Below, in pieces: positions 4,678 to 19,882 of a DNA stretch of 32,000 nucleotides. The stretch comes from Nostoc sp. PCC 7120 = FACHB-418 (GTDB lineage: Bacteria; Cyanobacteriota; Cyanobacteriia; Cyanobacteriales; Nostocaceae): contig NC_003272.1 of assembly GCF_000009705.1 (NCBI RefSeq), forward strand, positions 4,200,001 to 4,232,000, in the 5' to 3' direction. How positions within the stretch are numbered: the first letter of the stretch is position 1; each line of letters starts with the position of its first letter. The translations under genes were made by a program, and so were the position numbers. A model generated the notes under the pieces. That model saw only the letters and a list, made by a program, of their open reading frames with translations. It did no database searches and was not told where the DNA came from.

Positions 4678-5958
4678 ATGCCTAGAAGAACTCACGGTGA
4701 TCAAGTTAAAGAGCGGGTCAAGCGTCTGTTAGAGGCGTTACTTTGTGTTGTCGATGGGGAATTTGAGGACGGTATTTCTGGTATTAAGCACAATGATTGG
4801 AAGGAGGAAAGCAGCACTAACCCCAAGCTAATTGTCGAAACCACCCTGAGACATTTAGAGTACTTGACAGATAAAGACAAATACCCAGGTAAGCTAACAA
4901 ATCCACAAATCCGAGAAGCCCTTCACCTTCTTGATAAAAAGAGAAATGATTCTCTATTAAAAATTCTGGAAGACCACCGTACCACAAAAAGAGGTTCTGC
5001 TAATTGGCACTTTACGTTGAAGCTATGGTCAAAAGATAAAAAAATAAATTTGGAGAAGTTTGAACAAGAGTGGGAAAGCAAAAGACCGGAAAAATCAAAA
5101 AAACCAGAAGATTTTAAACCAGTATCGAACCCAGATCCAAGTTCACATATAAACAACTCCACTGAATTAGAAAAAAAAGAGAAAGCACGAAAATTCCTAC
5201 GCTCATTTGATTGTGCAATACAGGAGAGCTATTTAAAACCAAAGATTGTTAAAGATAAATGCGGATTTTTCCCTACTCAGGTAGATAAAAGCGTTGAATT
5301 GTGGTTTAGATGGCGCTTAACAAAATGTATGGGAGATTTTGATAAAATCAAAAAAATTCAGATTGATATTGACTATAGTATAGTAAAAAATTTTAAGTTT
5401 TTTTGGCAAAAAATTGGTGAATATGTAGACAAAAAAGGCGATTTTGACAGTGATGCGGCAATTAATGAATTAATTAATGAATTAATTCAGCTTTGTGAAA
5501 AACAGCCTGTAATGATTGTTATTAAAAATGCTAAACAATTATCTCGTAATAGGCAAAAAGAGATGTTTGAGTTCTGTGAGATATTACTAAAATCGTTTAA
5601 AGGAAATATTGATAAGCATAGATCATATTTGGTTATCTTCCTAATAGAACGAAAAAATACTGATCAAGATACGAGTCAAGAATACTCTACTCAAATTGAT
5701 ATTGATAATGACTTTCTTCAACAAGAAATGATTGAGATAGAATTCATAAAATTTTTACAACAAGACATAGAAAATTGGTTAGATGAGAATCAAAGTAATC
5801 TTAAAGAAGAAAATTTTGATGCAGACATAAAACCCGAAATGATAAATTATTTATTGAAACAGGAATCTGACATATTACTAGATGAAATTTGTAAGAATGT
5901 ATTTAAGTTAAATAATGGTATTGCAGATGTTGAAGACTATTGGAGGAAATTCGCATGA
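4678..5958 (+). CDS. hypothetical 426-aa protein, first gene of the MoxR/vWA/DGR-target operon
   Basis: Long ORF, visibly AT-rich and Lys/Asp/Glu/Ile-rich. No catalytic motif is recognisable by eye. Its TGA stop (5956-5958) overlaps the downstream ATG (5955) as ATGA, which suggests translational coupling. Confidence 0.7.
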   Translation: MPRRTHGDQVKERVKRLLEALLCVVDGEFEDGISGIKHNDWKEESSTNPKLIVETTLRHLEYLTDKDKYPGKLTNPQIREALHLLDKKRNDSLLKILEDHRTTKRGSANWHFTLKLWSKDKKINLEKFEQEWESKRPEKSKKPEDFKPVSNPDPSSHINNSTELEKKEKARKFLRSFDCAIQESYLKPKIVKDKCGFFPTQVDKSVELWFRWRLTKCMGDFDKIKKIQIDIDYSIVKNFKFFWQKIGEYVDKKGDFDSDAAINELINELIQLCEKQPVMIVIKNAKQLSRNRQKEMFEFCEILLKSFKGNIDKHRSYLVIFLIERKNTDQDTSQEYSTQIDIDNDFLQQEMIEIEFIKFLQQDIENWLDENQSNLKEENFDADIKPEMINYLLKQESDILLDEICKNVFKLNNGIADVEDYWRKFA

Positions 5959-6995
5959 TGAGTGACAATAAAAAACCAGATTATGAATATACAGCAGAAG
6001 AAAAGTACCAAACTGAAGATGGTACTGAAGACCCTTGGAAGCAAATTTATTGTCCTTACCCTTACCTACCTAGCGATGAATTAAAAGAAGCTGTTAATTT
6101 AGCGATCGCACTCGAACGACCATTACTATTGGAAGGAGAACCAGGTTGTGGTAAAACTCGGTTAGCTGGAGCGGTTGCCTATGAATTTACCAAAAAAAAC
6201 GCAGAATATCTGTCAACCCAGGAAAAATTCTGGGCTTATTATATCTGGAATATTAAATCTACAATCCGCGCTCGTGATGGGCTTTATAGATACGATGCTG
6301 TTGCTCGATTGCGGGATGCTCAGTTGATGGGAACAGATCCAGACAAATTGCAAGATTTTTTAGGCGGCGAAGAAACTGAAGAATTAAAGCAAAGGTTAAA
6401 GGATAAAAAAAATTATAGAGAATTTGGAGCATTAGGTAAAGCTTTACAAAAACATGATTATCGGCCGATTTTATTAATTGATGAAATCGATAAAGCAGAT
6501 AGTGATTTTGCAAATGATTTACTACTGGAGTTAGAAGAATTACGCTTTGAAATTCCTGAAACTGGAGAGTCATTCCCTACACCTGAAAACAAACCGATTA
6601 TTTTTATTACGAGTAATCGAGAAAAACCTTTACCAGAACCTTTTTTGCGTCGCTGTATTTACTTTTATGTTGAATTTCCTGATGATAAGTTACTCAGAAA
6701 TATAATAGATAAGCGATTTGGTACGCTCACAGGCAGGAACAAACAAAAAATAAAAGATAAAGCCATAGAGATTTTTTATAACATTCGCGATTTGTTGGAA
6801 AAGCATCCAGGAAGTAAGCCACCAGGAACTAGCGAATTTATAGATTTTTTTAACGCTATTTTACAAAGAAAGAATCCCTTGGATGACTTAGATAACTTAT
6901 TTAATAGAACGTCATTACTGGGCATACTTATTAAAACAAAGCCAGACCAATTTTTAGTATCAAATTACTTAAAAGAGGAAAATCAGTACAAGTAA
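5955..6995 (+). CDS. MoxR-like AAA+ ATPase (AAA_5 type)
   Basis: Walker A LLLEGEPGCGKTRLA, Walker B ILLIDEIDKAD, sensor-1-like IIFITSNRE, Arg-finger region PEPFLRRC. I chose the start at 5955 because GGAGGA (5942-5947) sits 7 nt upstream. The track ORF begins at 5940. Confidence 0.9.
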   Translation: MMSDNKKPDYEYTAEEKYQTEDGTEDPWKQIYCPYPYLPSDELKEAVNLAIALERPLLLEGEPGCGKTRLAGAVAYEFTKKNAEYLSTQEKFWAYYIWNIKSTIRARDGLYRYDAVARLRDAQLMGTDPDKLQDFLGGEETEELKQRLKDKKNYREFGALGKALQKHDYRPILLIDEIDKADSDFANDLLLELEELRFEIPETGESFPTPENKPIIFITSNREKPLPEPFLRRCIYFYVEFPDDKLLRNIIDKRFGTLTGRNKQKIKDKAIEIFYNIRDLLEKHPGSKPPGTSEFIDFFNAILQRKNPLDDLDNLFNRTSLLGILIKTKPDQFLVSNYLKEENQYK

Positions 6996-7009: not shown

Positions 7010-8254
7010 GTGAAGCTTATTATTAATTGCTTTATGAATAATTCTGTAGATGCTTCAATTTTGTTCAATGATTCTTCACCGCAGTTATTAGCAACAGGAA
7101 TTACTCAAACTCTAGAAGAGTATGAATCTTTATTATTAGACTTATTTCAAGAATTGCGACAAGCTGGAATGGCTTTAACCCCGGAACAATATGAGTTATT
7201 ACAAATTGCAGTTGAAAAAGGGTATGGTTTAGCCGGATGGGAAGATTTAAAACGGTTGTGTCGGTTACTGTGGGTTAAACCCTGCGCTAATTATGATATT
7301 AATATTTTTAATCGCGTCTTTAATAGTTATCTCCAGCAGCATCGTGCCAAAACACTTATAAACCCTGAACCAGAAACGCTAGCAGAATCACCAGAAAAAA
7401 CTTCTAATTCTCCTGACAGCACACCTTCTGTTGTAGAACCATTATCAAATCTTCCCCAAATCCCCCCCAGGAATTTTGAAAAACCACTATCTCTGCAACC
7501 GGATAAAGTAGAAACTCCAAGCGCGATCAAGGGTTCATCAACCCCCCCAAAACTTAAATTTGAGCAGTCAAATTTTGTCCTCAATCCCCAGGATTTTCCC
7601 ATCAATTTACAAGATGTTCAAAGAATTTGGCGTTTACTAAAAAAACCAGTGCGGCTTGGCTGGGAAGATGAATTGGACATTGAAGCCACCGTTGAGCGAA
7701 TTGAACGGGAAGGTTTTTTAACAGATGTGGAGATGCGTCCCAGAATGACTCGACAAGCCGAATTGTTGTTGTTAATTGATGATAATTCGGCAATGATCCC
7801 ATTTTTTCTAGCATTTGAACCTTGGATGCAAGCAATTAAAGAAGCTCGAATCACTCCCGCTCGGATATATCGGTTTACCAGCTATCCCGACGAATATCTT
7901 TATGAGTGGGAACGTCCAACTCTTGCTCATCCTCTGATTAATATCTTGCCAAAACTGCATCGCCACCGCACAATCGCCCTAATTTTCAGCGATGCTGGAG
8001 CCGCAACAATTACCTACAACCAAGACCGAATTGACGGAATATCAAAGTTTTTAATTGCCTTATCTCCCTGTGTTCGTCAGTTTATTTGGCTGAATCCCTT
8101 ACCGCATCAACGATGGGAATATACCTCAGCTTGGGGAATTAATGCGACACTTAATGGAAAAATGTTAACCTATGGCCTTGCTAGCTTACAAATAGCAGCC
8201 AAAGAAAATCCACAAGGGGATACGATTAAAATATGGCAAATCAATCCCCATTAG
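7010..8254 (+). CDS. vWA-like domain protein, MoxR partner
   Basis: The C-terminal half has vWA-like strands ELLLLIDDNSAMIPF (degenerate DxSxS MIDAS position) and IALIFSDAGAA. A Pro/Ser-rich linker occupies the middle. The gene directly follows the MoxR gene. The start is uncertain: GTG at 7010 or ATG at 7034. Confidence 0.72.
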   Translation: MKLIINCFMNNSVDASILFNDSSPQLLATGITQTLEEYESLLLDLFQELRQAGMALTPEQYELLQIAVEKGYGLAGWEDLKRLCRLLWVKPCANYDINIFNRVFNSYLQQHRAKTLINPEPETLAESPEKTSNSPDSTPSVVEPLSNLPQIPPRNFEKPLSLQPDKVETPSAIKGSSTPPKLKFEQSNFVLNPQDFPINLQDVQRIWRLLKKPVRLGWEDELDIEATVERIEREGFLTDVEMRPRMTRQAELLLLIDDNSAMIPFFLAFEPWMQAIKEARITPARIYRFTSYPDEYLYEWERPTLAHPLINILPKLHRHRTIALIFSDAGAATITYNQDRIDGISKFLIALSPCVRQFIWLNPLPHQRWEYTSAWGINATLNGKMLTYGLASLQIAAKENPQGDTIKIWQINPH

Positions 8255-8280
8255 GAATAAATTCCCAGGAAAGGGAGAAA

Positions 8281-8820
8281 ATGGATGATTTGACAACTCG
8301 CCGCCTTCGGGTTGTTGAACAACGTTATGGAAAAAAGGCACTGGAATTAGCTTATCATGCAGCCTTACCCCTGACACTCACTTCAAGTTTGCTTTATTGT
8401 CTGCGAGAAACTTTTGTTCCCGATTGTCCTTGGTATGCAATAGCCGATGTGTTGCTATCAGGGTTATGTGAAACGATAGGCTATGACTTGTATGAAATGG
8501 AAGATAACACAAGATATGCCTTAATAGAGAGATTGCGAGAGGATCAAAGGTTTGGGGAACAGCGACTCCATGACTTGTCTAATTTTATGTCCCATTACAT
8601 TTTAAATCGCTTCAAGCAAGAGACTAATGAATATCGACGCGAGTGGATACCATTATCATACTTGATAGCAGATGGGGAAGGGGTAAATGCTATCAAGGAA
8701 CAATTGCGAAACTTGCTAGAAGCCTTACCAGAAGATGATGAAGAACGTATCAAATGGAAAGAGTTAGAAAAAAATACGAGGATATCTTCAAAGAGAAAGG
8801 CTTTGAGCCGTTGTTATTAA
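8281..8820 (+). CDS. helical module of unknown function, possibly the frameshifted N-terminal part of DGR target 1
   Basis: ATG at 8281 is preceded by AGGGAG (8272-8277). The ORF ends 45 nt after an A7 run (8768-8774). At that run a -1 shift joins it in frame to the 8754-9824 ORF. Confidence 0.55.
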   Translation: MDDLTTRRLRVVEQRYGKKALELAYHAALPLTLTSSLLYCLRETFVPDCPWYAIADVLLSGLCETIGYDLYEMEDNTRYALIERLREDQRFGEQRLHDLSNFMSHYILNRFKQETNEYRREWIPLSYLIADGEGVNAIKEQLRNLLEALPEDDEERIKWKELEKNTRISSKRKALSRCY

Positions 8821-9824
8821 AACCGTCACAAGATGAGCCTGACGAAAAAACTATCTTAGATGATGAGGAAAAGGCAATTGCACAAGCAATCGGAGTTGAG
8901 TTAAAACCTTGTCAGTATGATGTCGCAGTTATTAGTCCCAGTTTTAAGTTTGAAACCGTAACAGTAAATGCTCTCGGAAAAGTAATTAACACAGAGCAAA
9001 AACAAGCAATTTACTATGTAGAGTTCTTAGGGAAAACACCGGGAGAACCCGCAGAACTAGGAATCGAGATGGTAGCGATTCCGGGGGGAACTTTTAACAT
9101 GGGTTCGCCAAAAAATGAGCCAAACCGCAGCCACCATGAAAGTCCCCAGCATACCGTAACTGTGCAGCCTTTCTTTATGAGTAAGTATCCTATAACTCAG
9201 GCACAGTGGCGATTTGTAGCACAGTTGCCCCAAATAAATCGGGAAATAAGCTCAGAACCATCTCGTTTTAAAGGAGATACTTTACCAGTAGAACAAGTCT
9301 CTTGGTACAATGCTGTTGAATTTTGCCATCGCCTTTCTAAATATACAGGTAGACCCTACACTCTACCAACCGAAGCCGAATGGGAATATGCGTGTCGTGC
9401 TGGAACAACAACCCCATTCTATTTTGGAAAAACCATTACTGGTGACTTAGCCAATTATGATGCTACAAGCAACTATTTAAATGAACCTAAAGGACAATAC
9501 AAGGAGCGAACAAACCCAGTAGGACAATTTCCGCCTAACGCCTTTGGTTTATACGATATGCACGGAAATGTATGGGAATGGTGTCTAGACGATTGGCACA
9601 ATAACTATAAAGGTGCGCCAACAGATGGCAGCGCATGGCTTGACAATAATGATAACCTTTATCAAAAACAAGGAAGTGCTGTGCTGCGGGGCGGCTCCTG
9701 GGACGACCTTCCTGAAGGCTGCCGTTCCGCGTCCCGCCTCAGCCTCAATAGGGCGGTGCGCGACCTCATCCTCTACAGTTTTGGTTTTCGTGTTGTCTGC
9801 GCGTTCGGGAGGATTCTTCAGTAG
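8754..9824 (+). CDS. DGR target protein 1: FGE-sulfatase / C-type-lectin-fold domain with C-terminal VR1
   Basis: FGE-sulfatase family motifs are present: MVAIPGGTFNMGSP, VSWYNAVEFCHRLS, LPTEAEWEYACRAGTTTPF, GLYDMHGNVWEWCLDDW, LRGGSW. The last roughly 45 codons are the variable region, matching TR. Confidence 0.9.
   Translation: MERVRKKYEDIFKEKGFEPLLLKPSQDEPDEKTILDDEEKAIAQAIGVELKPCQYDVAVISPSFKFETVTVNALGKVINTEQKQAIYYVEFLGKTPGEPAELGIEMVAIPGGTFNMGSPKNEPNRSHHESPQHTVTVQPFFMSKYPITQAQWRFVAQLPQINREISSEPSRFKGDTLPVEQVSWYNAVEFCHRLSKYTGRPYTLPTEAEWEYACRAGTTTPFYFGKTITGDLANYDATSNYLNEPKGQYKERTNPVGQFPPNAFGLYDMHGNVWEWCLDDWHNNYKGAPTDGSAWLDNNDNLYQKQGSAVLRGGSWDDLPEGCRSASRLSLNRAVRDLILYSFGFRVVCAFGRILQ
9684..9811 (+). 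other. DGR variable region VR1 (128 bp)
   Basis: Colinear with TR 12414-12541. I counted 19 mismatches by hand and every one is at a TR adenine. The flanking blocks CTGCGGGGCGGCTCCTGG and TTGGTTTTCGTGTTGTCTGCGCGTTCGGGAG are identical. Confidence 0.93.
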
Positions 9825-9922
9825 CCCTTTATACTTTTGTCCTTTTACCCTTTGTACTTGTTCTTTTTTACTTTTCTGTCGCCTTATGGCGACTCGAATT
9901 TTTCACCAAAATATGAAGATTA

Positions 9923-10762
9923 ATGGCACAAACTATAATTGAACATCATCGACGGACAGGGCTGCATTTTGTTGAAGACTTGGGGAATGGAGTTCAACTA
10001 GAGATGATGCTGATTAAAGGTGATATTTTTACGATGGGCGCACCAAAAACAGAGGAAGCCAGCAGAGATAGTGAACGACCTCAACATGAAGTGACTATTC
10101 AAACTTTTTTTATGGGTAAGTATCAAGTCACTCAAGAGCAGTGGAAAGCAGTAGCAGTACTACCGCAGGTCAACAGAAAACTCAACCCAGACCCATCTAA
10201 CTTTAAAGGTGCAAATCGACCTGTTGAGCAAGTATCTTGGTATGATGCGGTGGAGTTTTGCGATCGCCTGACTGCCCATACAAAAAGACCCTACCGCCTA
10301 CCAACTGAAGCAGAATGGGAGTATGCGTGTAGAGCCGGAACAACAACCCCGTTTCATTTTGGCGAAACAATTACATCAGAGTTAGCTAACTATGATGCTA
10401 CTAAAACTTATGGTGCTGGGGTAAAAGGAACGTATCGACAAGAAACGACAGACGTAGGGAGCTTTGGCGTAGCGAATCATTTTGGGCTATACGATATGCA
10501 CGGAAACGTATGGGAATGGTGTCTAGACGATTGGCATAGTAGCTATGAAGGTGCGCCGACAGATGGTAGTGCGTGGTTTGATAATAATGATAACCTTTCT
10601 CAAAAGCAAGGACAAGCCGTGCTGCGGGGCGGCTCCTGGAGCTCCTCTCCTGTAGTCTGCCGTTCCGCGTCCCGCGGCAACAACGATAGGGCGGGGCGCG
10701 TCTACCGCTACTACGCTGTTGGTTTTCGTGTTGTCTGCGCGTTCGGGAGGACTTTTCAGTAG
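9923..10762 (+). CDS. DGR target protein 2: stand-alone FGE-sulfatase / CLec-fold domain with C-terminal VR2
   Basis: Paralogue of target 1 with the same motifs (VSWYDAVEFCDRLT, LPTEAEWEYACRAGTTTPF, GLYDMHGNVWEWCLDDWH, LRGGSW). Only about 30 residues precede the FGE domain. Confidence 0.9.
   Translation: MAQTIIEHHRRTGLHFVEDLGNGVQLEMMLIKGDIFTMGAPKTEEASRDSERPQHEVTIQTFFMGKYQVTQEQWKAVAVLPQVNRKLNPDPSNFKGANRPVEQVSWYDAVEFCDRLTAHTKRPYRLPTEAEWEYACRAGTTTPFHFGETITSELANYDATKTYGAGVKGTYRQETTDVGSFGVANHFGLYDMHGNVWEWCLDDWHSSYEGAPTDGSAWFDNNDNLSQKQGQAVLRGGSWSSSPVVCRSASRGNNDRAGRVYRYYAVGFRVVCAFGRTFQ
10622..10749 (+). other. DGR variable region VR2 (128 bp)
   Basis: Colinear with TR. I counted 21 mismatches by hand: 20 at TR adenines and one at a TR thymine (TR 12499 T, VR2 10707 G). 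Confidence 0.93.
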
Positions 10763-10971
10763 CCCTTTATACTTTAGCTCTTTTCCACTTTGTACTTGTT
10801 CTTTTTTACTTTTTCTTAGCGTAACGGAGTGGAGCGTTGAAAATTTTTTTCAAATCAATCCAGGATAGAAACTAAATACATAAAAAATGAAGCCGCGAGT
10901 ATAAATAGATTAAGACTATTGACCCTGAGCGCAGCCGAACTGTTGATAAAAATATTAAGATTGATTAAAAA

Positions 10972-11316
10972 ATGAAAGAATTATCGGTCATCCAAAAGAC
11001 CTATGATTGTATTAAATGGTATGTGCCAATTATTGAGAGATTACCCAAAATTCATAAATTTACTTTGGGAGATAGAATTATCAATCAACTGTATGATTTA
11101 TTAGAGGGATTAATTAAAGCCAAATATGCTAAAAATAAACTACCTCAACTAGAATCTCTCAATAGCCAACTAGATATTTTACGCTATCAAACAAGAATGC
11201 TATTTGATTTTGATAAGATGTCAATTGAGCGATACGAATATGTTATCAAGCTAATAGATGAAATTGGTACGGAATTAGGGGGTTGGATTAAAAATCAAAG
11301 AAACAGAGAAAAATGA
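10972..11316 (+). CDS. avd: Avd-like accessory variability determinant (four-helix-bundle / 23S rRNA-IVS protein family)
   Basis: 114-aa helical protein directly upstream of the RT. Its N-terminus, KTYDCIKWYVPIIERLPKIHKFTLGDRIINQLYDLLEGLIKA, is typical of the four-helix-bundle family that includes DGR Avd. Confidence 0.85.
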   Translation: MKELSVIQKTYDCIKWYVPIIERLPKIHKFTLGDRIINQLYDLLEGLIKAKYAKNKLPQLESLNSQLDILRYQTRMLFDFDKMSIERYEYVIKLIDEIGTELGGWIKNQRNREK

Positions 11317-11333
11317 TATTTAAATAAAAGATA

Positions 11334-12392
11334 ATGAAACGTTACGGTAATCTTTACCAGGAAATCATTAATTTTGAAAATATACTTATAGCATCGCGTC
11401 AAGCACAAAAAAGCAAGCGGTTTCGGGACAATGTTTTAGATTTTAATTATCATCTAGAAACTGAATTAATTAAATTACAGAAACACTTAACAGATAAAAC
11501 CTATCAGCCAGGAGCTTACCGAACATTTCGTTTAACCAACCCCAAGAGTCGCTTAATTTCTGCCGCACCCTATCGAGATAGAGTTGTTCACCATGCACTA
11601 TGCAACATCATTGTGCCAATTTTCGAGAGAGCTTTTGTAGCTGATTCTTATGCTAACAGAATTGGTTTTGGAACCCATCGAGCGTTGAAAAAATTTACTC
11701 ATTCTGCTCGTAACAGCCCCTATGTACTTCAATGTGATATCAGAAAATATTTTCCGAGTATTGACCACATAATTTTAAAAGAATTAATCCGTCGTAAAAT
11801 CAAATGCCCCGATACATTGTGGTTAATTGACACTATCATCGATAATAGCAACGAACAAGAAACAGTGATTGATTATTTTGCTGGAGATGATTTACTCTCT
11901 CCTATAACTCGCAGGAAAGGTTTACCTATTGGAAATTTGACCAGCCAATTTTTTGCGAATATTTATTTAAATGGCTTTGATAAAATTATCAAAGAAGAGC
12001 TAAAAATATCCAAATATGTCCGTTATGTTGATGACTTTGCCTTATTTAGTGATGACCGAGAATTATTAGCCGATGCTAGACTAGCAATAGAAGCATATTT
12101 AGCTGAATTAAGGCTGAAAATCCACCCAATTAAAAGCCAATTATTTGAAACGAAAATTGGTGCAACTTTTCTGGGCTTCAGGATATTTTCTCACAAAATT
12201 CGGGTCAGAAATAGTAATTTACATCAAGCAAGGCGCAGACTTAAGCGATTGAAAACAGACTATGCTCAAGGTAAACTTGAACTTAATCAAGTAACTCAAT
12301 CTATGAGAAGTTGGATTGCTCACCTAGAACATGGTGATACTTGGCGATTACGCAAACAGATATTTACTTCCCTCCATTTTAGGAGAAAGTAG
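11334..12392 (+). CDS. DGR-type reverse transcriptase
   Basis: RT motifs are present: [16 protein letters not shown], the catalytic motif [12 protein letters not shown] (YxDD), and the DGR-diagnostic [17 protein letters not shown] (the I/LGxxxSQ motif). TR follows 21 nt after the stop. Confidence 0.93.
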
Positions 12393-12413
12393 AGAAGGGG
12401 TAGGCGAACCCGA

Positions 12414-12541
12414 CTGCGGGGCGGCTCCTGGAACAACAATCCTGAAAACTGCCGTTCCGCGTCCCGCAACAACAACAATAGGGCGGAGCGCGACAACATC
12501 AACAACAATATTGGTTTTCGTGTTGTCTGCGCGTTCGGGAG
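12414..12541 (+). other. DGR template repeat (TR), 128 bp
   Basis: Contains 32 adenines by my count, arranged as AAC/AAT codon runs. In the VR frame it reads [42 protein letters not shown]. It matches both VRs except at adenines. Confidence 0.93.
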
Positions 12542-12845
12542 TACTCTTCACCGCGAGAGTCGGCAGGTGGGAATCTGTCGAGAGTGCAACTGAAGAGTCC
12601 AGCCTACACCTGTGATGTCGGTGACGATATCCAAATATAAAACCGGGTTGCGTAGCTTGGTAGGCGAAAGCCGAACAGTTGCTCAACCCTACAAACAAAA
12701 TTCAAAATTCTCTGTCTTGACCATTTCAGGATTTTGGGCAGATCCAGCCAGAACCTAGCTCTGCATCGGATAGGGGTTATGACGAAATATAGCCGATGAG
12801 TATCGCAAAATAGCAGAAGAACAACAAAATATAGCTTGGGACACA

Positions 12846-13298: not shown

Positions 13299-13886
13299 CT
13301 ATTTAACTAGCTGGACTGTTTTATAACCATACGAACCCATAGAATCCTTATTCTGCCGTTGCTGGTGGAGGGTTGCCAAATGCTCTAATGCTTGGTTCAG
13401 ACCTCTTGAAATGTGCCGCTCATATCGAGCTAATTTATCTGTATCTTGCGGCAAAGCCAGGGATTTTTTCTCCTCTTCCCTAATCTGTGCCTGCAAACTT
13501 TTCAGTTCTGCACCCCCACTTCTATCGCTCCCCAAATCAATGAGTGATTGCAAGGCATCGGGAAATTTAAAATTCATTTCAGCCCTTAAAATAGAGAGAT
13601 TGGCGATCGCCGCCTCCGCCTGCCAAAGCCGACTTAACTTTAGCCAACCCATTGCCACTTGCTGCACCAGCAGTTTTTCCGTAGCAGTTGTTGGTTGATA
13701 TTCGTCAATTAAGGACTGTACAAAGCCTGGAAATACCTCTAAATCTTCACCCATTACTAACGGTGGATTAACCGACAGTAACCCATGTCGTGTAGAGTTT
13801 CCAGAAGCAATAGATTTGCCCTTTTGTGTAACTGGGCCACGAGATTTTTTTCCATTGGCTCGACAAATTTCAGGATTGGCAACCAT
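13299..13886 (-). CDS. hypothetical protein (195 aa) at the distal end of the integrative element
   Basis: Clean ORF with a basic N-terminus (NGKKSRGPVTQKGKSIASGNSTRHGLL) followed by a helical region. I have seen this architecture near integrases, but its function is unknown. Confidence 0.6.
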   Translation of the reverse strand: MVANPEICRANGKKSRGPVTQKGKSIASGNSTRHGLLSVNPPLVMGEDLEVFPGFVQSLIDEYQPTTATEKLLVQQVAMGWLKLSRLWQAEAAIANLSILRAEMNFKFPDALQSLIDLGSDRSGGAELKSLQAQIREEEKKSLALPQDTDKLARYERHISRGLNQALEHLATLHQQRQNKDSMGSYGYKTVQLVK

Positions 13887-14034
13887 AAGCTTCTCTTACA
13901 AAATTAATAGTATATTCATCGCTTTTATTTCTTCACAAGTGGAAGAACTAATACAATTTGTGTATGTATAAAGTCGCAAGTCAAGTGGCTTGTATTAGTA
14001 ATTCCCTGTACTAAGACTTTGTGAGTGATCGCGG

Positions 14035-17000
14035 TCATGCTGGATTAACATCACTAATACTCACTGAACATGAGCGATCGCCCAAGTCAATAAATAATTT
14101 TTCACCCATCATTGTAAGCACTTCAGCTTCTGAACCTTGGTAGCTAACTTTATCCCCTTGTTTAAATTTGTAGACCTTTTGAGAAATTACCTCAAAGCTA
14201 TCGCTGATAGGGATTTCATCTAATTGTGGCTTAGAAATTGTAGATAAGTGTACGTAATTTGTAGACTCTTGAGAAACAAGCTCAAAGCTATTTCTGGCAA
14301 TACTTTCGGAATAACAATCTTGATTTGTAGACGTTGTAGACGATTCTCCATGTAAATTCTCATCCAAGTTCACAACTGGAGTATCTGTTTGTGGCTCAAC
14401 CAATGTTTTGACCTTCACATCATGAGAAAAATCGTCTACATCGTCTACAAAATCAGACTGTTTTTTCTGTAATTCAGTTTTCACGATAGTTTCAGGAGAG
14501 AAACAATTATCTACAAATCGTCTACAATCATCTACAGAGTTTTGACTATTTTCTTCTGAACTTCTTGTTTTTACAGTGGTTGCGGCTTTTTTATCAGTAG
14601 CCAACAAATCGTCTACAACTTTATTGGTTCTAAACTCTAATCGTTTACCAGTTCCTCTTAATTCTCCGTAACCCATATCTACTGCCTTAGTCATCAGTTC
14701 TCTAACCTCGGCTGATTTCATCCGGCCTTTAGCGTTTTGCCTGAGGCTGACATCTCTTGCAGTGAGCCATCCTTCCTCACCCAGTAATTGGCGTTTTATA
14801 GAAAGCTTAATCATGGCTAAAATTGCAGACTGTGTTGATTCCCCAGCTATTTGTAGATGCACTGTCTGAATCTGTGTTAATAGATGCTCAACGATGCCCG
14901 CAGCCTGTTGTACTCGAATTAAGGGAATGATTGCTGGTGGAGTTTCACAAAAAGAATCTGATAGTTCATGGATGAGATGGAGATTTAAGGATACTCGTCC
15001 CAACAACCCTGTACACTTTTTCAAGAACTCTTTCAACGCACCGTTTGGAAGCCGTCCGGCTTCAAGTTGCCATTTATTGTCCACACTACGGAAATATTCG
15101 TAAACCTCATCTGTAATATGGTACGTCTGAGGCGCACAGTTAAGTGTTGCCCTGTACAGTCCTTGAAGCAGTCCAGTTAAGTCAATAACCGGTGCGCTCT
15201 CATCTGGTAGTAGACGTATATCTTCATTCAGTATTGAAAAAGTAAATCTGGGTAGTAATCCATCACTTGCGCCAATCTGAAAATATTGATGAAGTATGGA
15301 GGGTTGTAATCCACCAAGCCAAGCTGTGTTAGTTGCCCCAACACAAATGTTCTTTGACACTTTAGCTTCACTGAATCCATCACCATCATACAAACTGAGA
15401 AATTCTTGACGGTCATTACCTTGACCACGCTTGTATTGATTGAATCCACCAAACAAACCTGATAATTCATCAACAACATTCAGTATTGAGTATTCTGGTG
15501 CTTTTGCAATGTAATCTTTCAATCCTTCCAATGTGGAGCCAGTTAAATACATTTTGTTTACTGGCTTTGGTGCTTCTGGTTGTGGAGTGGATTTATCAGA
15601 TTTTTCCCATGCAGCTAAATCTCTGTTGTATTCTTCTGATTCTTCTTTAAATCGTTTAACTTCTTCCTCTCTTAGAGCATTTAGGGGCTTTTTAACCAAA
15701 GCTCTAAAGATGATTGACTTACCAGTTCCAGACTCACCAACTAAAGCATGGTTAATAGCTGGATTTTGATAAAATCCATTGTGCCTATTTCCGATCAGAA
15801 CCTGTGTACCAAGCATATGTGATGAGCTAACTACGCTGATTAAACACATCATTAATGAGGCCTCTGATAGCGATTGGTTGCGCCCAAATAACATTAAGGC
15901 TGTCGCTATTGTTCTTGGTAAGAACTGCCTAACATCTAAATTAATCTTGGAACATCTTAATACTGTTTGAATGTCTTCTCTTATCAGTTCATTATCTTCA
16001 GACTTACGATGTTCTGCTTCTACATTGCCTAGAAAATTGTCTAATTTTACAGGATAATACTTTTTGTTTGCCTCAGTTTTAAAACGACTTATTTCTGATT
16101 TTGAAACCTGAGAATCTAGCAAATTGATGTACTCAGCTTTAATATCGTCGTATGGAATGGTGGCTGTAGTGTGAATAAGAACTTTTGATGGTTGGGCGAT
16201 CGCCTGTTGGTGTTTCTCTGGGATGATATGACCTTTTGATCTAGCGATGTCTAAAGTGACTCTAAAAATTTCTTTGGTGTCACAGTTTTTATGGCAATGA
16301 AACTGTCCTGTATGCTCATTGATGTGTAGGCTATCGCTACTATTTCCCCCATGAACAGGACACTTACAAGTTATCCAGTTCTTACGCCCTCCAGGTTTAT
16401 AACCTTCTAGATATTGAGACAGCTTCCGCATATCAGCCCAATCATCAGCAACAAGTGGATTGCCTTGTAATTTTGCCTCATGGTATGGGATTAGTTCTCT
16501 CAAACTTTTGTAGGTGTATCGTTTTCCAGTATTAAGGATGATTTGAGTTTGTCCATTAACGACGTTCTCTGACGCGAAATGCCAACACCCGGCCAGTCTC
16601 ATCACCCTTGATGGATTTTTGAGCGAGCGATCTGCATCTGCGTACTCTAGTAAGTCAGCTTGCAGACTTTTCCACTGCTGAGGATCGATGAACTGCTCAA
16701 AAGTCCAATAACTATGTATAGACCTACCGCCAGTGTCTATCTGCAAACTTGGTTCTGGCAATTGGAGCGATCGCCATAATTCTCTCTGTACTTCTTTATC
16801 TAAATCGTCATGTTCAATAAAAAGTGCGCGACAGTTAGTGATATCTTGATCTCTATGTCCAGGGCCATTCACAACCAAGTAAACCCCTCTACCCTCTGAT
16901 TGAAATTGCCTAACAATTTCGACTAGTTCATCTAAATTATTAGTTTCTGCCTTTCTCCCCTTATCATTGGTTTTTCGTGGATCGTTGCTAGGATAAAAAG

Positions 17001-17112
17001 CGCGGAGACAGACTGCATCATTTTGATTAAATCCAAGAGCTTTAAGTTGTTGACAGATTTGAGCTACGTCAATTGTAGGAGCATTTGCTCCTTTGCCTGT
17101 TTGTGCATACAT
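14035..17112 (-). CDS. replicative primase-helicase (primase/Prim-Pol-like N-terminus, CHC2-like zinc finger, P-loop D5/DUF3987-like NTPase)
   Basis: Acidic motif ALFIEHDD in the N-terminal region. Zinc-finger-like CKCPVHGGNSSDSLHINEHTGQFHCHKNC. Walker A LVGESGTGKSII. The C-terminal roughly 180 aa is low-complexity with repeated VDD and ST(T/N) elements. Confidence 0.85.
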   Translation of the reverse strand: MYAQTGKGANAPTIDVAQICQQLKALGFNQNDAVCLRAFYPSNDPRKTNDKGRKAETNNLDELVEIVRQFQSEGRGVYLVVNGPGHRDQDITNCRALFIEHDDLDKEVQRELWRSLQLPEPSLQIDTGGRSIHSYWTFEQFIDPQQWKSLQADLLEYADADRSLKNPSRVMRLAGCWHFASENVVNGQTQIILNTGKRYTYKSLRELIPYHEAKLQGNPLVADDWADMRKLSQYLEGYKPGGRKNWITCKCPVHGGNSSDSLHINEHTGQFHCHKNCDTKEIFRVTLDIARSKGHIIPEKHQQAIAQPSKVLIHTTATIPYDDIKAEYINLLDSQVSKSEISRFKTEANKKYYPVKLDNFLGNVEAEHRKSEDNELIREDIQTVLRCSKINLDVRQFLPRTIATALMLFGRNQSLSEASLMMCLISVVSSSHMLGTQVLIGNRHNGFYQNPAINHALVGESGTGKSIIFRALVKKPLNALREEEVKRFKEESEEYNRDLAAWEKSDKSTPQPEAPKPVNKMYLTGSTLEGLKDYIAKAPEYSILNVVDELSGLFGGFNQYKRGQGNDRQEFLSLYDGDGFSEAKVSKNICVGATNTAWLGGLQPSILHQYFQIGASDGLLPRFTFSILNEDIRLLPDESAPVIDLTGLLQGLYRATLNCAPQTYHITDEVYEYFRSVDNKWQLEAGRLPNGALKEFLKKCTGLLGRVSLNLHLIHELSDSFCETPPAIIPLIRVQQAAGIVEHLLTQIQTVHLQIAGESTQSAILAMIKLSIKRQLLGEEGWLTARDVSLRQNAKGRMKSAEVRELMTKAVDMGYGELRGTGKRLEFRTNKVVDDLLATDKKAATTVKTRSSEENSQNSVDDCRRFVDNCFSPETIVKTELQKKQSDFVDDVDDFSHDVKVKTLVEPQTDTPVVNLDENLHGESSTTSTNQDCYSESIARNSFELVSQESTNYVHLSTISKPQLDEIPISDSFEVISQKVYKFKQGDKVSYQGSEAEVLTMMGEKLFIDLGDRSCSVSISDVNPA
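14168..14618. repeat. inverted iteron array (TTGTAGAC / GTCTACAA), candidate replication origin inside the primase 3' coding end
   Basis: Five copies of TTGTAGA(C/T) start at 14168, 14238, 14259, 14325 and 14334. Six inverted copies of (G/A)TCTACA start at 14434, 14443, 14509, 14520, 14530 and 14611. They are roughly symmetric about position 14388. Confidence 0.7.
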
Positions 17113-17440
17113 GGCGATTTGTTATCCTTTATGCTAATAAATATTTAGAAATGCTTTGATGAACTGTTTGAGTACAATGACTTAGAAGTTTTGTCATCGG
17201 CTTCATACTCAATATCTTTGTTTTTATCCCGTTCTAAAAACTTATGTTGTCTTGTTTCAGAGCAACTAATAGCGGGAAATTCATTTTTGCACAGTCACTT
17301 AATTCTTTAATTGCGCTCTCTTAAGAGTTTGTCTTTTCTGGGGTAAAAATCATGAGTTTAGTTCACCCCTTTATGCACGAATAATCTTATATATTTGCTC
17401 TGAGGAGCGGTTGAATCTTGTTTTTGATAATTCTCGTGTA

Positions 17441-17707
17441 TCAATTGACCTTCCTTCCTCTTTTCTGTGGTTGATTAGATGGAAGGGACTGAAGATAAAT
17501 ATCTATCGCTCTTTGATGCGCCTGTGGATTATCTCTATTAGCAATCCAATCGAGTATTAAAGTAATGTTGTAAAGCGTAGTTCTGGAATTTATTTTTTGC
17601 CAATGGATTCCTTCTTCCCAAATCCCTTTGAGCCGATATCGCTTAAATGTTTCAGATGATAAACCTATTTGTTCTGATAGCTGTCTTTTGCTAACAAAAT
17701 AGTTCAT
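17441..17707 (-). CDS. AlpA/excisionase-like helix-turn-helix DNA-binding protein
   Basis: 88 aa. The HTH-like segment is KRQLSEQIGLSSETFKRYRLKG followed by IHWQKI. Its position between integrase and primase matches Xis/AlpA genes of integrative elements. Confidence 0.65.
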   Translation of the reverse strand: MNYFVSKRQLSEQIGLSSETFKRYRLKGIWEEGIHWQKINSRTTLYNITLILDWIANRDNPQAHQRAIDIYLQSLPSNQPQKRGRKVN

Positions 17708-17757
17708 ATCGGAGTTATTGTTAACGAACTAATCCAATATGAACCATTTTTACCAAT

Positions 17758-18492
17758 CTAGCGCGAAAGCGACTTTTCTTTTGTAACCCTTACCAGATAG
17801 CCTTTTTGACTGATTGATTCTTTTTTTCTACCTTGTCTTTGCAATTTTCCCTTAAAATAGATTCTGATTCTATCTTTTTTCATAAAAGCGGTAATTTTCT
17901 GCCTAGCTACCACAACAGGCATATAAAATCTTTTCCTAAACTCATCATCAACATTTGCTAACTTGATTGCCAAATCCATAATTTTCCATGTATGAGGGCT
18001 TTCTTCTCGATCAAAAGGATTTTCGCATCCTTGGAGTTCCCTATTTTGATGTTGTCTAAGAGCTAAATACTTTTTAACTCTCAGTTTCCCGCCTGAGTAA
18101 GTAGCAATAAAAACCATAAGGTCTCCCTCTTCTACCAATTCACGCAGCAAATGAGCAGGATGAGTAGCGAAAGAGTTGAGATTGGACATTTTTTCAAGCA
18201 TTTGATAAACAGATTTCCATAAATCTACCTCTGGCATAATTATCGGCTTTAATATTTTATCTACATTCCATTTAGCAAATTTATTATCAATAATTTGTCG
18301 ATAAAATTCTCCAACTACAAGCTGACGATACTTTATGATTAATCGTCCTGTATCTGTTTGCATCAAATCTTGGTTTTTTTCCTCAGATGTAAGTTCATTT
18401 AAAACACCACGAATAAAAATTTTAGAATGAAAATAAACTGATACAGGAGAAATACCATAAGGCATGGGTAAGAGTAACTTTTTTGTGTACAT
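17758..18492 (-). CDS. hypothetical protein (244 aa), element cargo or regulator
   Basis: Clean ORF between the integrase and the AlpA-like gene. No motifs recognised. Confidence 0.6.
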   Translation of the reverse strand: MYTKKLLLPMPYGISPVSVYFHSKIFIRGVLNELTSEEKNQDLMQTDTGRLIIKYRQLVVGEFYRQIIDNKFAKWNVDKILKPIIMPEVDLWKSVYQMLEKMSNLNSFATHPAHLLRELVEEGDLMVFIATYSGGKLRVKKYLALRQHQNRELQGCENPFDREESPHTWKIMDLAIKLANVDDEFRKRFYMPVVVARQKITAFMKKDRIRIYFKGKLQRQGRKKESISQKGYLVRVTKEKSLSR

Positions 18493-18694
18493 AACTTTCT
18501 CCGTTTTACTAATGTTTGTTAATTAAAACGGCTCTTCAGTTCATTTTATGGAACAGAATAATAAATAAAACCCAAAGATAGCCTGTATTCATTGCTGTGA
18601 CTGGGTTTTAAGTTTTTGAGCCTTTCTATAAAACTGTGATTTTAATGCTCCACCATAAAACCAACGCAAGAGCCATTAAAACCAGTTATACAGA

Positions 18695-19882
18695 TTAATC
18701 AATGGGACGTAAATTCAGCATTTTTAGATAATCTGCATAATGCTTTTCAATCATCTCAACGCTGGTATCGCACCATTTGCCTATGACTGATTCGGAAACG
18801 CCTTTAAGAATTTGAATAGTGATGAAGGTATCTCTACAACTATAAGGTGTAGTGTTTGGTTTAATCTGGTCAACAATTCTATTCCAGGCATTATTACAAA
18901 AATTGTTGTAGTTGATTACTTTTCCCTTTGGACTAGGAAAAACCAAATCATCTAAATAAGGATTTTCAGGTTTGATAGATATGAGTAAATTTCGTAATCT
19001 TTCTGAACAAGGGAATTGCCGTTTTTTGTTGTTTTTAGATCCCTGTACTCTTGTAGGGATACCATTTCCCGATGTTGTCACTGACTCTTCAAAGCGAATA
19101 TAACCACAGTCCTCTGCTATGTGCTTCCATTGAAGCCCAATTGCTTCTGATGGACGACAACCTGTCAGGAATAAAAATTCTACAAGTGAAGCATAATGAC
19201 TATAACTGATGCCTGTATAGCCTCTACCGTTCCAATTTCCCCGATGATCTTTAAATGCTTTAATAATTTTTTCTCTTTCTTGTTCTGAAAAAGCATTGGG
19301 TTTAGGTTCCAATTGATAACGGTACTTTGGCATCTCGTTAGCCATTCCCACATAAGGGTTAGAGTCAATCAACTTATGTTTTACAGCCCAGTTGCAAGCT
19401 GCATTAAGTTGAATCAATGCCCGCTTGGTTTGCCCTACTGTAGTTATCCTCTCCAATTCTGCTTTCACTTTAAGAGCATCCGGCAGTGGTATATTGCCTA
19501 AACGTTGGAACAGTTTGGTGAAGCTATTGTGGTATCCCTTAGTTGTTTCCTTGAGGCTTGATGATTTGTAATTGATATAACTTTCCCAAAGTTCTGTTAT
19601 TTTGGGTGTAAATTTGGGTGTAATGTCAGGTTCAACGGTACTCAGCACTGATTGAGGCTTGTACTTGTCCAGTGTTGGATCAAAATTTCCTGAAGCAATA
19701 TCCAACTCAATCTGATTCTTTTTTGCTTCTGCTGCTTTACGGCTTATTTTTGTATCGGGTAAACCAAGAGATAAATAGTATCTTTTCCCTCCATAACGAA
19801 ATCGTAGTTGTAACCGTCCATTGGAATCAATAATAGAGACATTTCCCTTGGGTACTTTCCCTGTAGGTGTTTTGGTGTACAT
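18695..19882 (-). CDS. int: tyrosine recombinase / phage-type integrase
   Basis: Catalytic-domain boxes LFLTGCRPSEAIGLQWKHI (Arg I), TPYSCRDTFITI (YxxR where HxxR is usual) and the C-terminal VEMIEKHYADY (Tyr nucleophile region). It sits next to the tRNA 3' end. Confidence 0.9.
   Translation of the reverse strand: MYTKTPTGKVPKGNVSIIDSNGRLQLRFRYGGKRYYLSLGLPDTKISRKAAEAKKNQIELDIASGNFDPTLDKYKPQSVLSTVEPDITPKFTPKITELWESYINYKSSSLKETTKGYHNSFTKLFQRLGNIPLPDALKVKAELERITTVGQTKRALIQLNAACNWAVKHKLIDSNPYVGMANEMPKYRYQLEPKPNAFSEQEREKIIKAFKDHRGNWNGRGYTGISYSHYASLVEFLFLTGCRPSEAIGLQWKHIAEDCGYIRFEESVTTSGNGIPTRVQGSKNNKKRQFPCSERLRNLLISIKPENPYLDDLVFPSPKGKVINYNNFCNNAWNRIVDQIKPNTTPYSCRDTFITIQILKGVSESVIGKWCDTSVEMIEKHYADYLKMLNLRPID

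What the first reader, a model, noticed from the sequence alone, without database searches (positions are those of the whole stretch)
9684..12541. Adenine-only TR-to-VR mismatch pattern at two variable regions indicates a functional DGR
I aligned the 128-bp TR (12414-12541) by hand against VR1 (9684-9811) and VR2 (10622-10749).
- VR1 differs at 19 positions, all at TR adenines.
- VR2 differs at 21 positions, 20 of them at TR adenines.
- The two VRs also differ from each other at many of these sites.
- TR carries 32 adenines by my count, arranged as AAC/AAT codons (NNN, N, NNNN, N.NNN). This is the codon design DGRs use to sample many residues without creating stops.
- The conserved scaffold GGSW...CRSA.R...GFRVVC is the known CLec-type VR frame.

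Inference: both VRs have received mutagenic homing since they duplicated.
Basis: seen in the sequence. Interest (0 to 1): 0.7.

Follow-up and report, generated by a model that had tools for sequence, protein, structure and literature searches.

The report
Known Nostoc PCC 7120 diversity-generating retroelement
The adenine-only mismatch pattern is real and marks a genuine diversity-generating retroelement that has rewritten two lectin-fold genes, but it is the already published element of the model cyanobacterium Nostoc (Anabaena) sp. PCC 7120.

Summary
TR 12414-12541 has 32 adenines. VR1 differs at 19 sites, all TR adenines. VR2 differs at 21 sites, 20 of them adenines (hypergeometric p about 1e-14 each).

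The cassette is complete:
- two FGE-sulfatase/C-type-lectin target genes, each with its VR 13 nt before the stop codon
- avd
- a DGR-type reverse transcriptase with intact motifs
- TR inside a conserved, covarying structured RNA

Both VRs were homed after the target genes duplicated. The paralogs are 68-86% identical upstream of the VR but 95/96 identical at non-adenine VR sites.

Exact protein matches place the window in Nostoc sp. PCC 7120 (alr3494, alr3495, avd, alr3497). This DGR and its two VRs are already in the literature. So is its MoxR-vWA conflict-system context. Low-level adenine mutagenesis has been measured in the N. punctiforme orthologue.

Present-day activity is not shown. VR1 and VR2 are identical in every public assembly found, and all of those are one clone.

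Side observations:
- a 1-nt homopolymer frameshift splits target 1
- the window carries a T100A change in the RT
- a conserved pyrimidine-rich element follows every VR in this RT clade

Ordinary and known; low interest.

The parts
4678..5958 (+). Gene for a protein with an N-terminal EAD4 adaptor domain (effector-associated domain 4). First gene of the conflict-system operon upstream of the DGR.
   Evidence: Pfam EAD4 2.3e-36. Exact match to BAB75189.1 of PCC 7120.
5940..6995 (+). MoxR-like AAA+ ATPase.
   Evidence: Pfam AAA_5 4.3e-11 and AAA 1.9e-8; a weak bpMoxR hit. A homologue lies 4-5 kb upstream of the RT in 42 of 80 related loci.
7010..8254 (+). vWA-like protein.
   Evidence: Weak Pfam VWA_CoxE hit, 7e-4, below the curated cut-off. 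Syntenic homologues in 18 of 80 related loci.
8233..8820 (+). N-terminal domain of target 1 (195 aa, no Pfam family). In this strain it is cut off from the lectin domain by a frameshift.
   Evidence: Sister assemblies encode a fused 530/514-aa protein, P0123/P0125. Homologues sit directly upstream of the lectin domain in 16 related loci.
8765..8771 (+). A7 homopolymer, the site of the 1-nt frameshift that splits target 1. The read-through sequence of the fused sister proteins implies A8.
   Evidence: Sequence. The fused proteins read ...KELEKKYEDIF....
8754..9824 (+). Target gene 1 (alr3494), FGE-sulfatase / C-type-lectin fold domain carrying VR1.
   Evidence: Pfam FGE-sulfatase 2.2e-56. Cluster member BAB75193.1 is alr3494.
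9684..9811 (+). VR1. It ends 13 nt before the stop codon.
   Evidence: 19 of 19 mismatches to TR fall at TR adenines.
9812..9875 (+). VR1 3' flank. It comprises the point where VR and TR diverge (VR GGAT.. against TR GTAC..), the stop codon, and then a conserved non-coding pyrimidine-rich element (AGCCCTTTATACTTTTGTCCTTTTACCCTTTGTACTTGTTCTTTTTT).
   Evidence: 89% identical to the VR2 flank although non-coding. Conserved across species. C+T enrichment shown.
9878..9893 (+). GC hairpin followed by a T-run (terminator-like) after target 1.
9923..10762 (+). Target gene 2 (BAB75194.1; the gene-number order implies alr3495). It consists of the lectin-fold domain only and carries VR2.
   Evidence: Pfam FGE-sulfatase 2.2e-51. 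PDB TvpA 2y3c 3.7e-23, aligned through the C-terminal VR frame. Exact match to BAB75194.1.
10622..10749 (+). VR2.
   Evidence: 20 of 21 mismatches fall at TR adenines. The one exception is T>G at 10707, which gives an Arg codon that adenine mutagenesis alone cannot reach.
10750..10813 (+). VR2 3' flank carrying the same pyrimidine-rich element.
10972..11316 (+). avd (accessory variability determinant).
   Evidence: Pfam bAvd 3.4e-21. PDB Bbp7 4dwl 0.0065. Exact match to BAB75195.1, which its source names as a DGR Avd protein.
11334..12392 (+). DGR reverse transcriptase (alr3497). The window carries Ala100 (G at 11631), whereas all sister assemblies have Thr.
   Evidence: RVT_1 5e-22. bRT 8ub7 6.9e-47. 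The motifs [16 protein letters not shown] and YVDD are present and their key residues (D135, G200-Q205, Y231-D234) are invariant in 18 homologues. SNP shown.
12414..12541 (+). TR (template repeat). Non-coding, starting 21 nt after the RT stop codon.
   Evidence: Identical in all sister assemblies.
12393..12693 (+). Conserved structured RNA that contains TR. A long-range helix (12396-12405 with 12602-12611) encloses TR. Downstream hairpins lie at 12560-12581, 12612-12632 and 12645-12689.
   Evidence: RNAalifold on 12 species. 19 pairs carry compensatory changes, 0 of 500 shuffles reach that, and slid controls give 10 or fewer. Coordinates.

Best explanation
This is the chromosomal diversity-generating retroelement of Nostoc (Anabaena) sp. 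PCC 7120. Its order is target 1 (alr3494), target 2 (alr3495), avd, RT (alr3497), then TR.

Mechanism. Steps 1-3 are inferred from the Bordetella phage BPP-1 paradigm and from the orthologue in Nostoc punctiforme.
1. A structured non-coding RNA of about 300 nt (12393-12693) containing TR is transcribed.
2. The RT-Avd complex copies TR into cDNA and misincorporates opposite template adenines.
3. The cDNA replaces the homologous VR at the 3' end of each target gene. TR itself is left untouched. Directionality comes from the sequence just 3' of the shared GC-rich block, where VR (GGAT/GGAC...) and TR (GTAC...) diverge.
4. Shown here: both VRs carry substitutions essentially only at TR adenines. 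Both were homogenised to TR at non-adenine sites after the target genes duplicated. The 12 AAY codons plus 6 other adenine-bearing codons allow about 5e17 stop-free variants of the ligand-binding face of a C-type-lectin (FGE-sulfatase) fold.

The targets lie in an operon with an EAD4-adaptor protein, a MoxR-like ATPase and a vWA-like protein. They therefore most likely act as hypervariable sensors of a ternary conflict (immunity) system; this is a hypothesis from the literature.

In laboratory lineages the element is, at best, active at a low level. The consensus VRs are fixed.
For: - Adenine-restricted mismatches: 19/19 and 20/21, p about 1e-14.
- Homing after duplication: 95/96 non-adenine VR sites identical between paralogs, including 41/41 third codon positions, against 68-86% identity upstream.
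- Complete protein set: bAvd, RVT_1 and two FGE-sulfatase domains.
- The RT's best solved relative is the BPP-1 DGR RT 8ub7 at 6.9e-47, with the PIGxLTSQ motif and the YxDD motif (YVDD here, YMDD in bRT) aligned.
- The target aligns with the DGR variable protein TvpA through the C-terminal VR frame.
- The TR-flanking RNA structure is conserved with compensatory changes in 12 species.
- 101 of 107 TR/VR pairs in related loci have at least 80% of their mismatches at TR adenines, with the same gene order.
- MoxR, vWA and N-terminal-domain synteny is conserved.
- Identity with PCC 7120 genes rests on exact protein look-up.
- Literature: PMC3521204 Table 2 lists Nostoc sp. PCC 7120 with 2 VRs. PMC3610870 names Alr3497/Alr3495. 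PMC7517822 covers the PCC 7120 DGRs. PMC12691664 reports adenine-specific variation in both targets of the N. punctiforme orthologue.
Against: - No VR allele other than the two in the window was found. VR1 and VR2 are identical in the eight longer contigs L003-L010; the two short contigs L011 and L012 carry VR2 only, also unchanged.
- All members of the 90% protein clusters carry the same VR peptides.
- A metagenome scan and a C-terminal fragment search found only orthologues from other strains.
- These assemblies are one clone, and consensus sequences hide rare variants.
- Target 1 is split by a frameshift in this lineage.
- The window's RT has T100A at a position that is Thr or Ser in 98 of 104 homologues.
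- VR2 carries one non-adenine change.
- No BPP-1-like hairpin directly follows the VRs.
Confidence: 0.93

Rival explanations
1. Quiescent or domesticated relic. The element diversified both VRs in the past, but in PCC 7120 laboratory lineages it no longer homes. The VRs are frozen alleles kept by selection or by lack of activity.
For: - VR1 and VR2 are invariant in every assembly and cluster member recovered.
- Target 1 is frameshifted.
- VR2 has one non-adenine substitution.
- The window's subline has a missense change at a conserved RT residue.
Against: - RT, Avd and TR are intact, and TR is identical in all copies.
- Non-adenine VR sites show 0 of 96 and 1 of 96 changes, so the last homing was recent compared with the paralog divergence.
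- All the assemblies compared are 99.8-100% identical, so there has been almost no evolutionary time.
- The position equivalent to T100 is Gly in the active BPP-1 RT.
Confidence: 0.3
2. Not retroelement-driven. The three repeats are ordinary paralogous sequence or gene-conversion tracts, and the adenine bias arises by chance or from a compositional mutation bias.
For: None beyond the existence of repeats. De Bruijn assemblies do mis-join at the shared 31-mer, which shows that the repeats confuse assemblers.
Against: - Hypergeometric p about 1e-14 per VR.
- Substitutions go to all three other bases.
- The asymmetry is one-way: only the copy next to the RT keeps the adenines.
- The same pattern recurs in about 100 TR/VR pairs next to homologous RTs.
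Confidence: 0.01

Closest known systems
Nostoc punctiforme PCC 73102 DGR (Npun_F4889, F4890 targets; F4892 RT) with CHAT, MoxR and vWA neighbours
   Same: It has the same RT clade and the same layout of two lectin-fold targets with neighbouring MoxR and vWA genes, and it is named as closely related to Alr3497/Alr3495 (PMC3610870). Adenine-specific variation in both targets and a highly expressed TR RNA have been measured there (PMC12691664).
   Different: It is a different species and was not compared directly here. Its upstream effector is a CHAT protein rather than the EAD4 protein seen here. For the PCC 7120 element I found no read-level activity data.
Bordetella phage BPP-1 DGR (mtd, avd, TR, brt), the prototype
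   Same: It shares adenine-specific TR-to-VR information transfer. The RT is homologous (8ub7, 6.9e-47) and the PIGxLTSQ and YxDD motifs align. The Avd is homologous (Pfam bAvd; 4dwl 0.0065). The VR lies at the C-terminus of a C-type-lectin fold, and TR is embedded in a structured RNA.
   Different: - It is cellular, not phage-borne.
- TR lies after the RT instead of between avd and brt.
- There are two targets rather than one.
- The targets belong to the FGE-sulfatase/TvpA subtype rather than the Mtd subtype.
- No GC hairpin lies immediately 3' of the VR; a pyrimidine-rich tract followed by a terminator-like hairpin is found instead.
Treponema denticola TvpA (PDB 2y3c), a DGR variable protein of the FGE-sulfatase type
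   Same: Sequence homology at 3.7e-23. The VLRGGSW...C...R...GFR..C frame aligns at the C-terminus.
   Different: TvpA is a surface lipoprotein of a spirochaete. These targets show no secretion signal that I examined, and they sit in a cytoplasmic-type MoxR-vWA operon.
VMAP / MoxR-vWA ternary conflict systems with DGR-diversified FGS domains (Kaur et al. 2020, PMC7159879; clade 5E of Dore et al. 2024, PMC10907252)
   Same: [quoted passage not shown]
   Different: The FGS domain is not fused to the vWA protein but to a separate 195-aa N-terminal domain of unknown family. No VMAP domain was detected. The vWA assignment is below Pfam's threshold.

Membership tests
Diversity-generating retroelement (DGR) | A TR/VR repeat pair whose differences fall almost only at TR adenines. 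| tested here: met
   19/19 and 20/21 mismatches at TR adenines; p 1.6e-14 and 3.5e-14.
Diversity-generating retroelement (DGR) | A DGR-clade reverse transcriptase with an intact catalytic YxDD and the [ILV]GxxxSQ motif. | tested here: met
   YVDD and LPIGNLTSQ are present and invariant in 18 homologues. RVT_1 5e-22. The best PDB match is the BPP-1 bRT 8ub7, 6.9e-47, with these motifs aligned.
Diversity-generating retroelement (DGR) | VR at the 3' end of a protein-coding target; TR non-coding and close to the RT. | tested here: met
   Both VRs end 13 nt before the stop codons of ORFs 8754-9824 and 9923-10762. TR starts 21 nt after the RT stop codon.
Diversity-generating retroelement (DGR) | An accessory gene (avd or an HRDC-type gene). 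| tested here: met
   Pfam bAvd 3.4e-21, against a cut-off of 40 bits with 76.2 observed.
Diversity-generating retroelement (DGR) | IMH at the VR 3' end versus IMH* in TR, plus a downstream hairpin or cruciform as in BPP-1 and Legionella. | tested here: inconclusive
   A GC-rich invariant block (GTCTGCGCGTTCGGGAG) is followed by VR/TR divergence from position +129. No stable hairpin lies directly after the VRs; the VR2 flank folds no better than shuffles. A conserved pyrimidine-rich tract is present instead.
Diversity-generating retroelement (DGR) | Ongoing diversification: VR heterogeneity restricted to adenine sites within populations. | tested here: inconclusive
   No variant VR appeared in 10 sister contigs, in the cluster members, in one metagenome scan or in a fragment search.
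C-type-lectin / FGE-sulfatase type DGR variable protein (TvpA-like) | An FGE-sulfatase fold domain with the VR forming its C-terminal strands. | tested here: met
   Pfam FGE-sulfatase 2.2e-56 and 2.2e-51 over the full model. The TvpA 2y3c alignment reaches the C-terminal GFR..C motif. No structure was predicted.
MoxR-vWA (VMAP-type) ternary conflict system | A MoxR-like AAA+ ATPase gene next to a vWA-domain gene. | tested here: inconclusive
   The AAA+ assignment is clear (AAA_5 4.3e-11); bpMoxR is only 0.0035. VWA_CoxE at 7e-4 is below the cut-off. Synteny of the homologues is conserved in related DGR loci.
MoxR-vWA (VMAP-type) ternary conflict system | A VMAP domain protein as the third component. 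| tested here: not met
   No VMAP family hit for any ORF between 4678 and 8820, even at E up to 1. PMC10907252 notes that only a subset of cyanobacterial loci has a recognisable VMAP domain.
MoxR-vWA (VMAP-type) ternary conflict system | An effector-associated adaptor domain (EAD) linking sensor and effector. | tested here: met
   Pfam EAD4 2.3e-36 in ORF 4678-5958.

The most novel reading that the evidence does not exclude
The conserved non-coding pyrimidine-rich tract immediately 3' of every VR in this RT clade is the clade's cis-acting target-recognition or homing signal. The tract consists of 3-6 repeats of about 8 nt of the form (R)YCCTTT(T), and is usually followed by a GC hairpin with a T-run. 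On this reading it takes the place of the BPP-1-type hairpin or cruciform and explains why only lectin genes carrying it are diversified. I found no description of it in the searchable literature.
Probability: 0.3. Interest if true: 0.45.

Novelty: already known. Interest (0 to 1): 0.15.

Why it matters
As a finding it adds nothing new. The PCC 7120 DGR, its two VRs and its conflict-system neighbourhood are all published.

It does show that the first-stage reader can recognise a DGR from raw sequence with base-level accuracy.

The residual value lies in three side observations in a genetically tractable model organism:
- a frameshift-prone A-run that uncouples target 1's N-terminal domain from its variable lectin domain
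- a subline-specific RT missense change
- a conserved pyrimidine-rich element after each VR, which could be tested as a homing signal

Tried and rejected
1. Population variation. I looked for VR alleles in contigs encoding the exact Avd or RT, in 90% protein clusters, in a metagenome scan with a VR-specific 33-mer, and in a search with the C-terminal 99 aa of target 2. I found only identical VRs, or orthologues from other species.

2. Base pairing between the purine-rich 5' flank of the TR RNA and the pyrimidine-rich element after the VRs. Same-locus duplex energies (mean -25.3 kcal/mol) are not better than cross-locus pairings (-24.5, p = 0.13). They are only slightly better than shuffles (-23.3). 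Composition explains the result, so I rejected the idea.

3. A DGR carried on the tRNA-Gly / integrase / DUF3987 island to its right. No repeat of the tRNA 3' end occurs in the window. Integrase and DUF3987 homologues accompany the DGR in 2 and 0 of 80 related loci respectively. The island is a neighbour, not part of the DGR.

4. A BPP-1-like hairpin directly after the VRs. None was found for VR2. Only terminator-like hairpins about 65 nt downstream appear.

5. Rfam. No family matches the TR RNA at the gathering threshold.

6. Contigs joining VR1 or VR2 to TR-downstream sequence (L097, L098), and a contig lacking target 2 (L009). The joins fall inside the shared 31-mer of a k=31 graph. I treat them as assembly artefacts rather than as recombinants or homing intermediates, though this is not proven.


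Full report
**Observation**

A MAFFT alignment of TR (12414-12541), VR1 (9684-9811) and VR2 (10622-10749) has no gaps.
- TR has 32 adenines.
- VR1 has 19 mismatches, all at TR adenines.
- VR2 has 21 mismatches: 20 at TR adenines plus T86>G at window 10707.
- VR1 and VR2 differ from each other at 25 sites.
- The hypergeometric probability of such adenine restriction is 1.6e-14 for VR1 and 3.5e-14 for VR2.

Partial homology continues 9 nt beyond the stated ends. Only three copies of the invariant 3' block exist in the window.

In the target frame TR encodes [42 protein letters not shown]. That is 12 AAY codons. No adenine substitution can make a stop codon, and about 5e17 peptides are reachable per VR.

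**Anatomy**

On the + strand, in order:

| Coordinates | Feature | Evidence |
|---|---|---|
| 4678-5958 | EAD4-domain protein | Pfam EAD4 2.3e-36 |
| 5940-6995 | MoxR-like AAA+ ATPase | AAA_5 4.3e-11 |
| 7010-8254 | weak vWA-like protein | VWA_CoxE 7e-4, below cut-off |
| 8233-8820 | 195-aa ORF, no family | none |
| 8754-9824 | target 1, carries VR1 | FGE-sulfatase 2.2e-56 |
| 9923-10762 | target 2, carries VR2 | FGE-sulfatase 2.2e-51 |
| 10972-11316 | avd | bAvd 3.4e-21 |
| 11334-12392 | RT | RVT_1 5e-22 |
| 12414-12541 | TR | starts 21 nt after the RT stop |

The RT keeps the motifs [16 protein letters not shown] and YVDD. Their key residues (D135, G200-Q205, Y231-D234) are invariant among 18 homologues. 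Its best solved relative is the BPP-1 DGR RT 8ub7 at 6.9e-47, with the PIGxLTSQ motif and the YxDD motif (YVDD here, YMDD in bRT) aligned.

Target 2 aligns with the DGR variable protein TvpA (2y3c, 3.7e-23) right through the C-terminal VLRGGSW...GFR..C frame.

**Was each VR homed after duplication?**

Yes. The two target genes are 68% identical at 9100-9399, 72.5% at 9400-9683 and 86.5% in the 141 nt before the VR. There, third codon positions agree at 36 of 47.

Within the VR they agree at 95 of 96 non-adenine sites, including 41 of 41 third positions. They agree at only 8 of 32 adenine sites. Given even the lowest flanking divergence, the probability of at most one difference in 96 sites is 1.4e-5.

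Purifying selection on the protein cannot explain identity at synonymous sites. Repeated overwriting from TR can.

**TR RNA**

Twelve species' sequences from the RT stop codon to about 330 nt downstream align well beyond TR. They support a long-range helix (12396-12405 with 12602-12611) that encloses TR. Three downstream hairpins follow, at 12560-12581, 12612-12632 and 12645-12689.

Nineteen pairs show compensatory changes. None of 500 shuffles reach that number, and slid controls give 10 or fewer. No Rfam family matches at the gathering threshold.

This fits published statements that sequences flanking TR form part of the RT-Avd ribonucleoprotein (as cited in PMC12691664).

**Identity and prior knowledge**

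Exact protein look-ups give BAB75193.1 (alr3494), BAB75194.1, BAB75195.1 (Avd) and BAB75189.1 of Nostoc sp. PCC 7120, on a contig of 6,413,771 bp. The same proteins occur in NIES-23 and several FACHB strains.

The literature already covers the element.
- PMC3521204, Table 2, lists Nostoc sp. PCC 7120 among DGRs with two VRs.
- PMC3610870 names Alr3497/Alr3495 as a DGR related to those of Nodularia and N. punctiforme.
- PMC7517822 discusses the two DGRs of PCC 7120 and their dispersed lectin-fold paralogs.
- PMC7159879 and PMC10907252 describe DGR-diversified FGS domains in cyanobacterial MoxR-vWA ternary conflict systems.
- PMC12691664 reports low-level adenine-specific variation in both targets of the orthologous N. 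punctiforme element.
- From memory, not re-read here: the original DGR family paper (Doulatov et al. 2004) also listed Nostoc elements.

The finding is therefore correct but already known.

**Relatives**

The RT has thousands of homologues; the nearest outside this clone are 84-88% identical, in Nostocales. In 80 loci from other species the order target(s)-avd-RT-TR recurs. Of 107 TR/VR pairs detected there, 101 have at least 80% of their mismatches at TR adenines.

A MoxR homologue lies upstream in 42 loci, a vWA homologue in 18, and the 195-aa N-terminal domain in 16. Integrase homologues accompany the DGR in 2 of 80 loci and DUF3987 homologues in none.

**Is it active now?**

This could not be shown.
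- Eight longer contigs from independent samples (L003-L010) carry the same VR1 and VR2; two short contigs (L011, L012) carry only VR2, also unchanged. The samples are FACHB strains, a UBA MAG, JGI samples and the PRJEB12287 runs used for Illumina error profiling (PMC4787001).
- These contigs are 99.8-100% identical to the window, so they represent one clone.
- All members of the 90% clusters of both targets have the same VR peptides.
- A metagenome scan and a fragment search returned only orthologues from other species.
- Consensus assemblies cannot reveal rare variants, so this argues only against frequent sweeps.

**Side observations**

(a) Frameshift in target 1. The window has an A7 run at 8765-8771. 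It puts the 195-aa ORF and the lectin ORF in different frames. NIES-23 and a Trichormus variabilis assembly read through and give a 514/530-aa fused protein, which implies A8 there.

(b) RT missense change. Position 11631 is the one difference that sets the window apart from all seven sister assemblies compared base by base; they carry A where the window has G, and each has at most one further private difference apart from N-runs and gaps. It changes RT Thr100 to Ala. That position is Thr or Ser in 98 of 104 homologues, but it aligns with Gly in BPP-1 bRT.

(c) Pyrimidine-rich element after the VRs. The non-coding 50-60 nt after each VR-gene stop codon is conserved between the two targets (89%) and across species. 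Mean C+T is 0.76 for the 101 adenine-specific VRs, against a background of 0.50 +/- 0.09. The single decayed VR-like copy (L016 8446-8581, 11 of 25 mismatches at adenines) lacks it. I tested whether it pairs with the TR RNA 5' flank and found no support. Its role is open.

**Verdict**

Novelty: already known. Interest: low.

Noticed in passing
window 8765-8771 (ORFs 8233-8820 and 8754-9824): An A7 homopolymer splits target 1 into a 195-aa N-terminal ORF and the lectin-domain ORF, which lies in the -1 frame. Sister assemblies of the same clone (NIES-23 BAY69120.1, 514 aa; T. variabilis MBD2351835.1, 530 aa) encode the fused protein, which implies A8. This may be homopolymer phase variation or a laboratory-lineage mutation. 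A -1 slip at A_AAA_AAT would also restore the frame.
   Followed up: partly
window 11631 (RT codon 100): The one difference that sets the window apart from all seven sister assemblies compared base by base is G here where they have A. Each sister has at most one further private difference, apart from N-runs and gaps. It gives RT Thr100Ala at a site that is Thr or Ser in 98 of 104 homologues. The same allele occurs in Logan contigs from SRR34939177 and SRR34939198. The equivalent residue in BPP-1 bRT is Gly, so the effect is uncertain.
   Followed up: partly
window 9812-9875 and 10750-10813; also downstream of about 100 VRs in L013-L096: A conserved non-coding pyrimidine-rich element, made of repeats such as GCCCTTT / ACCCTTT / CCTTTT, follows each VR-gene stop codon and is usually followed by a GC hairpin with a T-run. 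TR lacks it. C+T is 0.76 against a background of 0.50. I found no description of it in the searchable literature.
   Followed up: partly
window 12393-12693: TR sits inside a conserved RNA of about 300 nt with covarying helices. A long-range helix encloses TR and three hairpins follow it. No Rfam family matches. L012 carries an A>G change at 12396, the first pair of the long-range helix.
   Followed up: yes
L097 (SRR22428081), L098 (SRR20172384), L009 (JGI 3300014713): Some contigs join VR1 or VR2 directly to TR-downstream sequence, skipping avd and the RT. One contig joins VR1 to the target 2 tail, so it lacks target 2. All joins fall in the shared 31-nt block. They are probably de Bruijn graph artefacts, but real VR/TR or VR/VR recombinants are not excluded.
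   Followed up: partly
window 13299-20131, minus strand: This is a probable integrated element next to the DGR. It comprises tRNA-Gly(TCC) at 20060-20131, a tyrosine integrase at 18695-19882, a 1025-aa DUF3987 primase/helicase-like protein at 14035-17112, and small ORFs. No repeat of the tRNA 3' end was found within the window. These genes are not syntenic with the DGR in other species.
   Followed up: partly
L005 from 17705 and L007 from 12845 (equivalent to window 18676 onward): Two contigs from PRJEB12287 runs diverge from the window just before the integrase gene. They continue into a 650-aa Peptidase_C14 + FGE-sulfatase gene, another lectin-fold paralog. This is either an alternative arrangement or a chimeric assembly.
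   Followed up: no
window 653-820: A tandem array of about 7 copies of a 21-nt unit (AATGCTCGAAAATGCACAACG) lies upstream of ORF 811-1431, which has no Pfam family.
   Followed up: no
window 21617-21697, minus strand: An Rfam PsrR1 (photosynthesis regulatory RNA 1) match scores 69.3 bits against a gathering score of 42, which fits a cyanobacterial origin. A GGDEF diguanylate cyclase gene at 20669-21592 lies next to it.
   Followed up: no
window 10707 (VR2 position 86): This is the only non-adenine TR/VR difference (T>G). Together with the adjacent A>C it turns the TR codon ATC (Ile) into CGC (Arg), a residue that adenine mutagenesis alone cannot reach. It is either a point mutation after homing or a non-adenine RT error.
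   Followed up: partly
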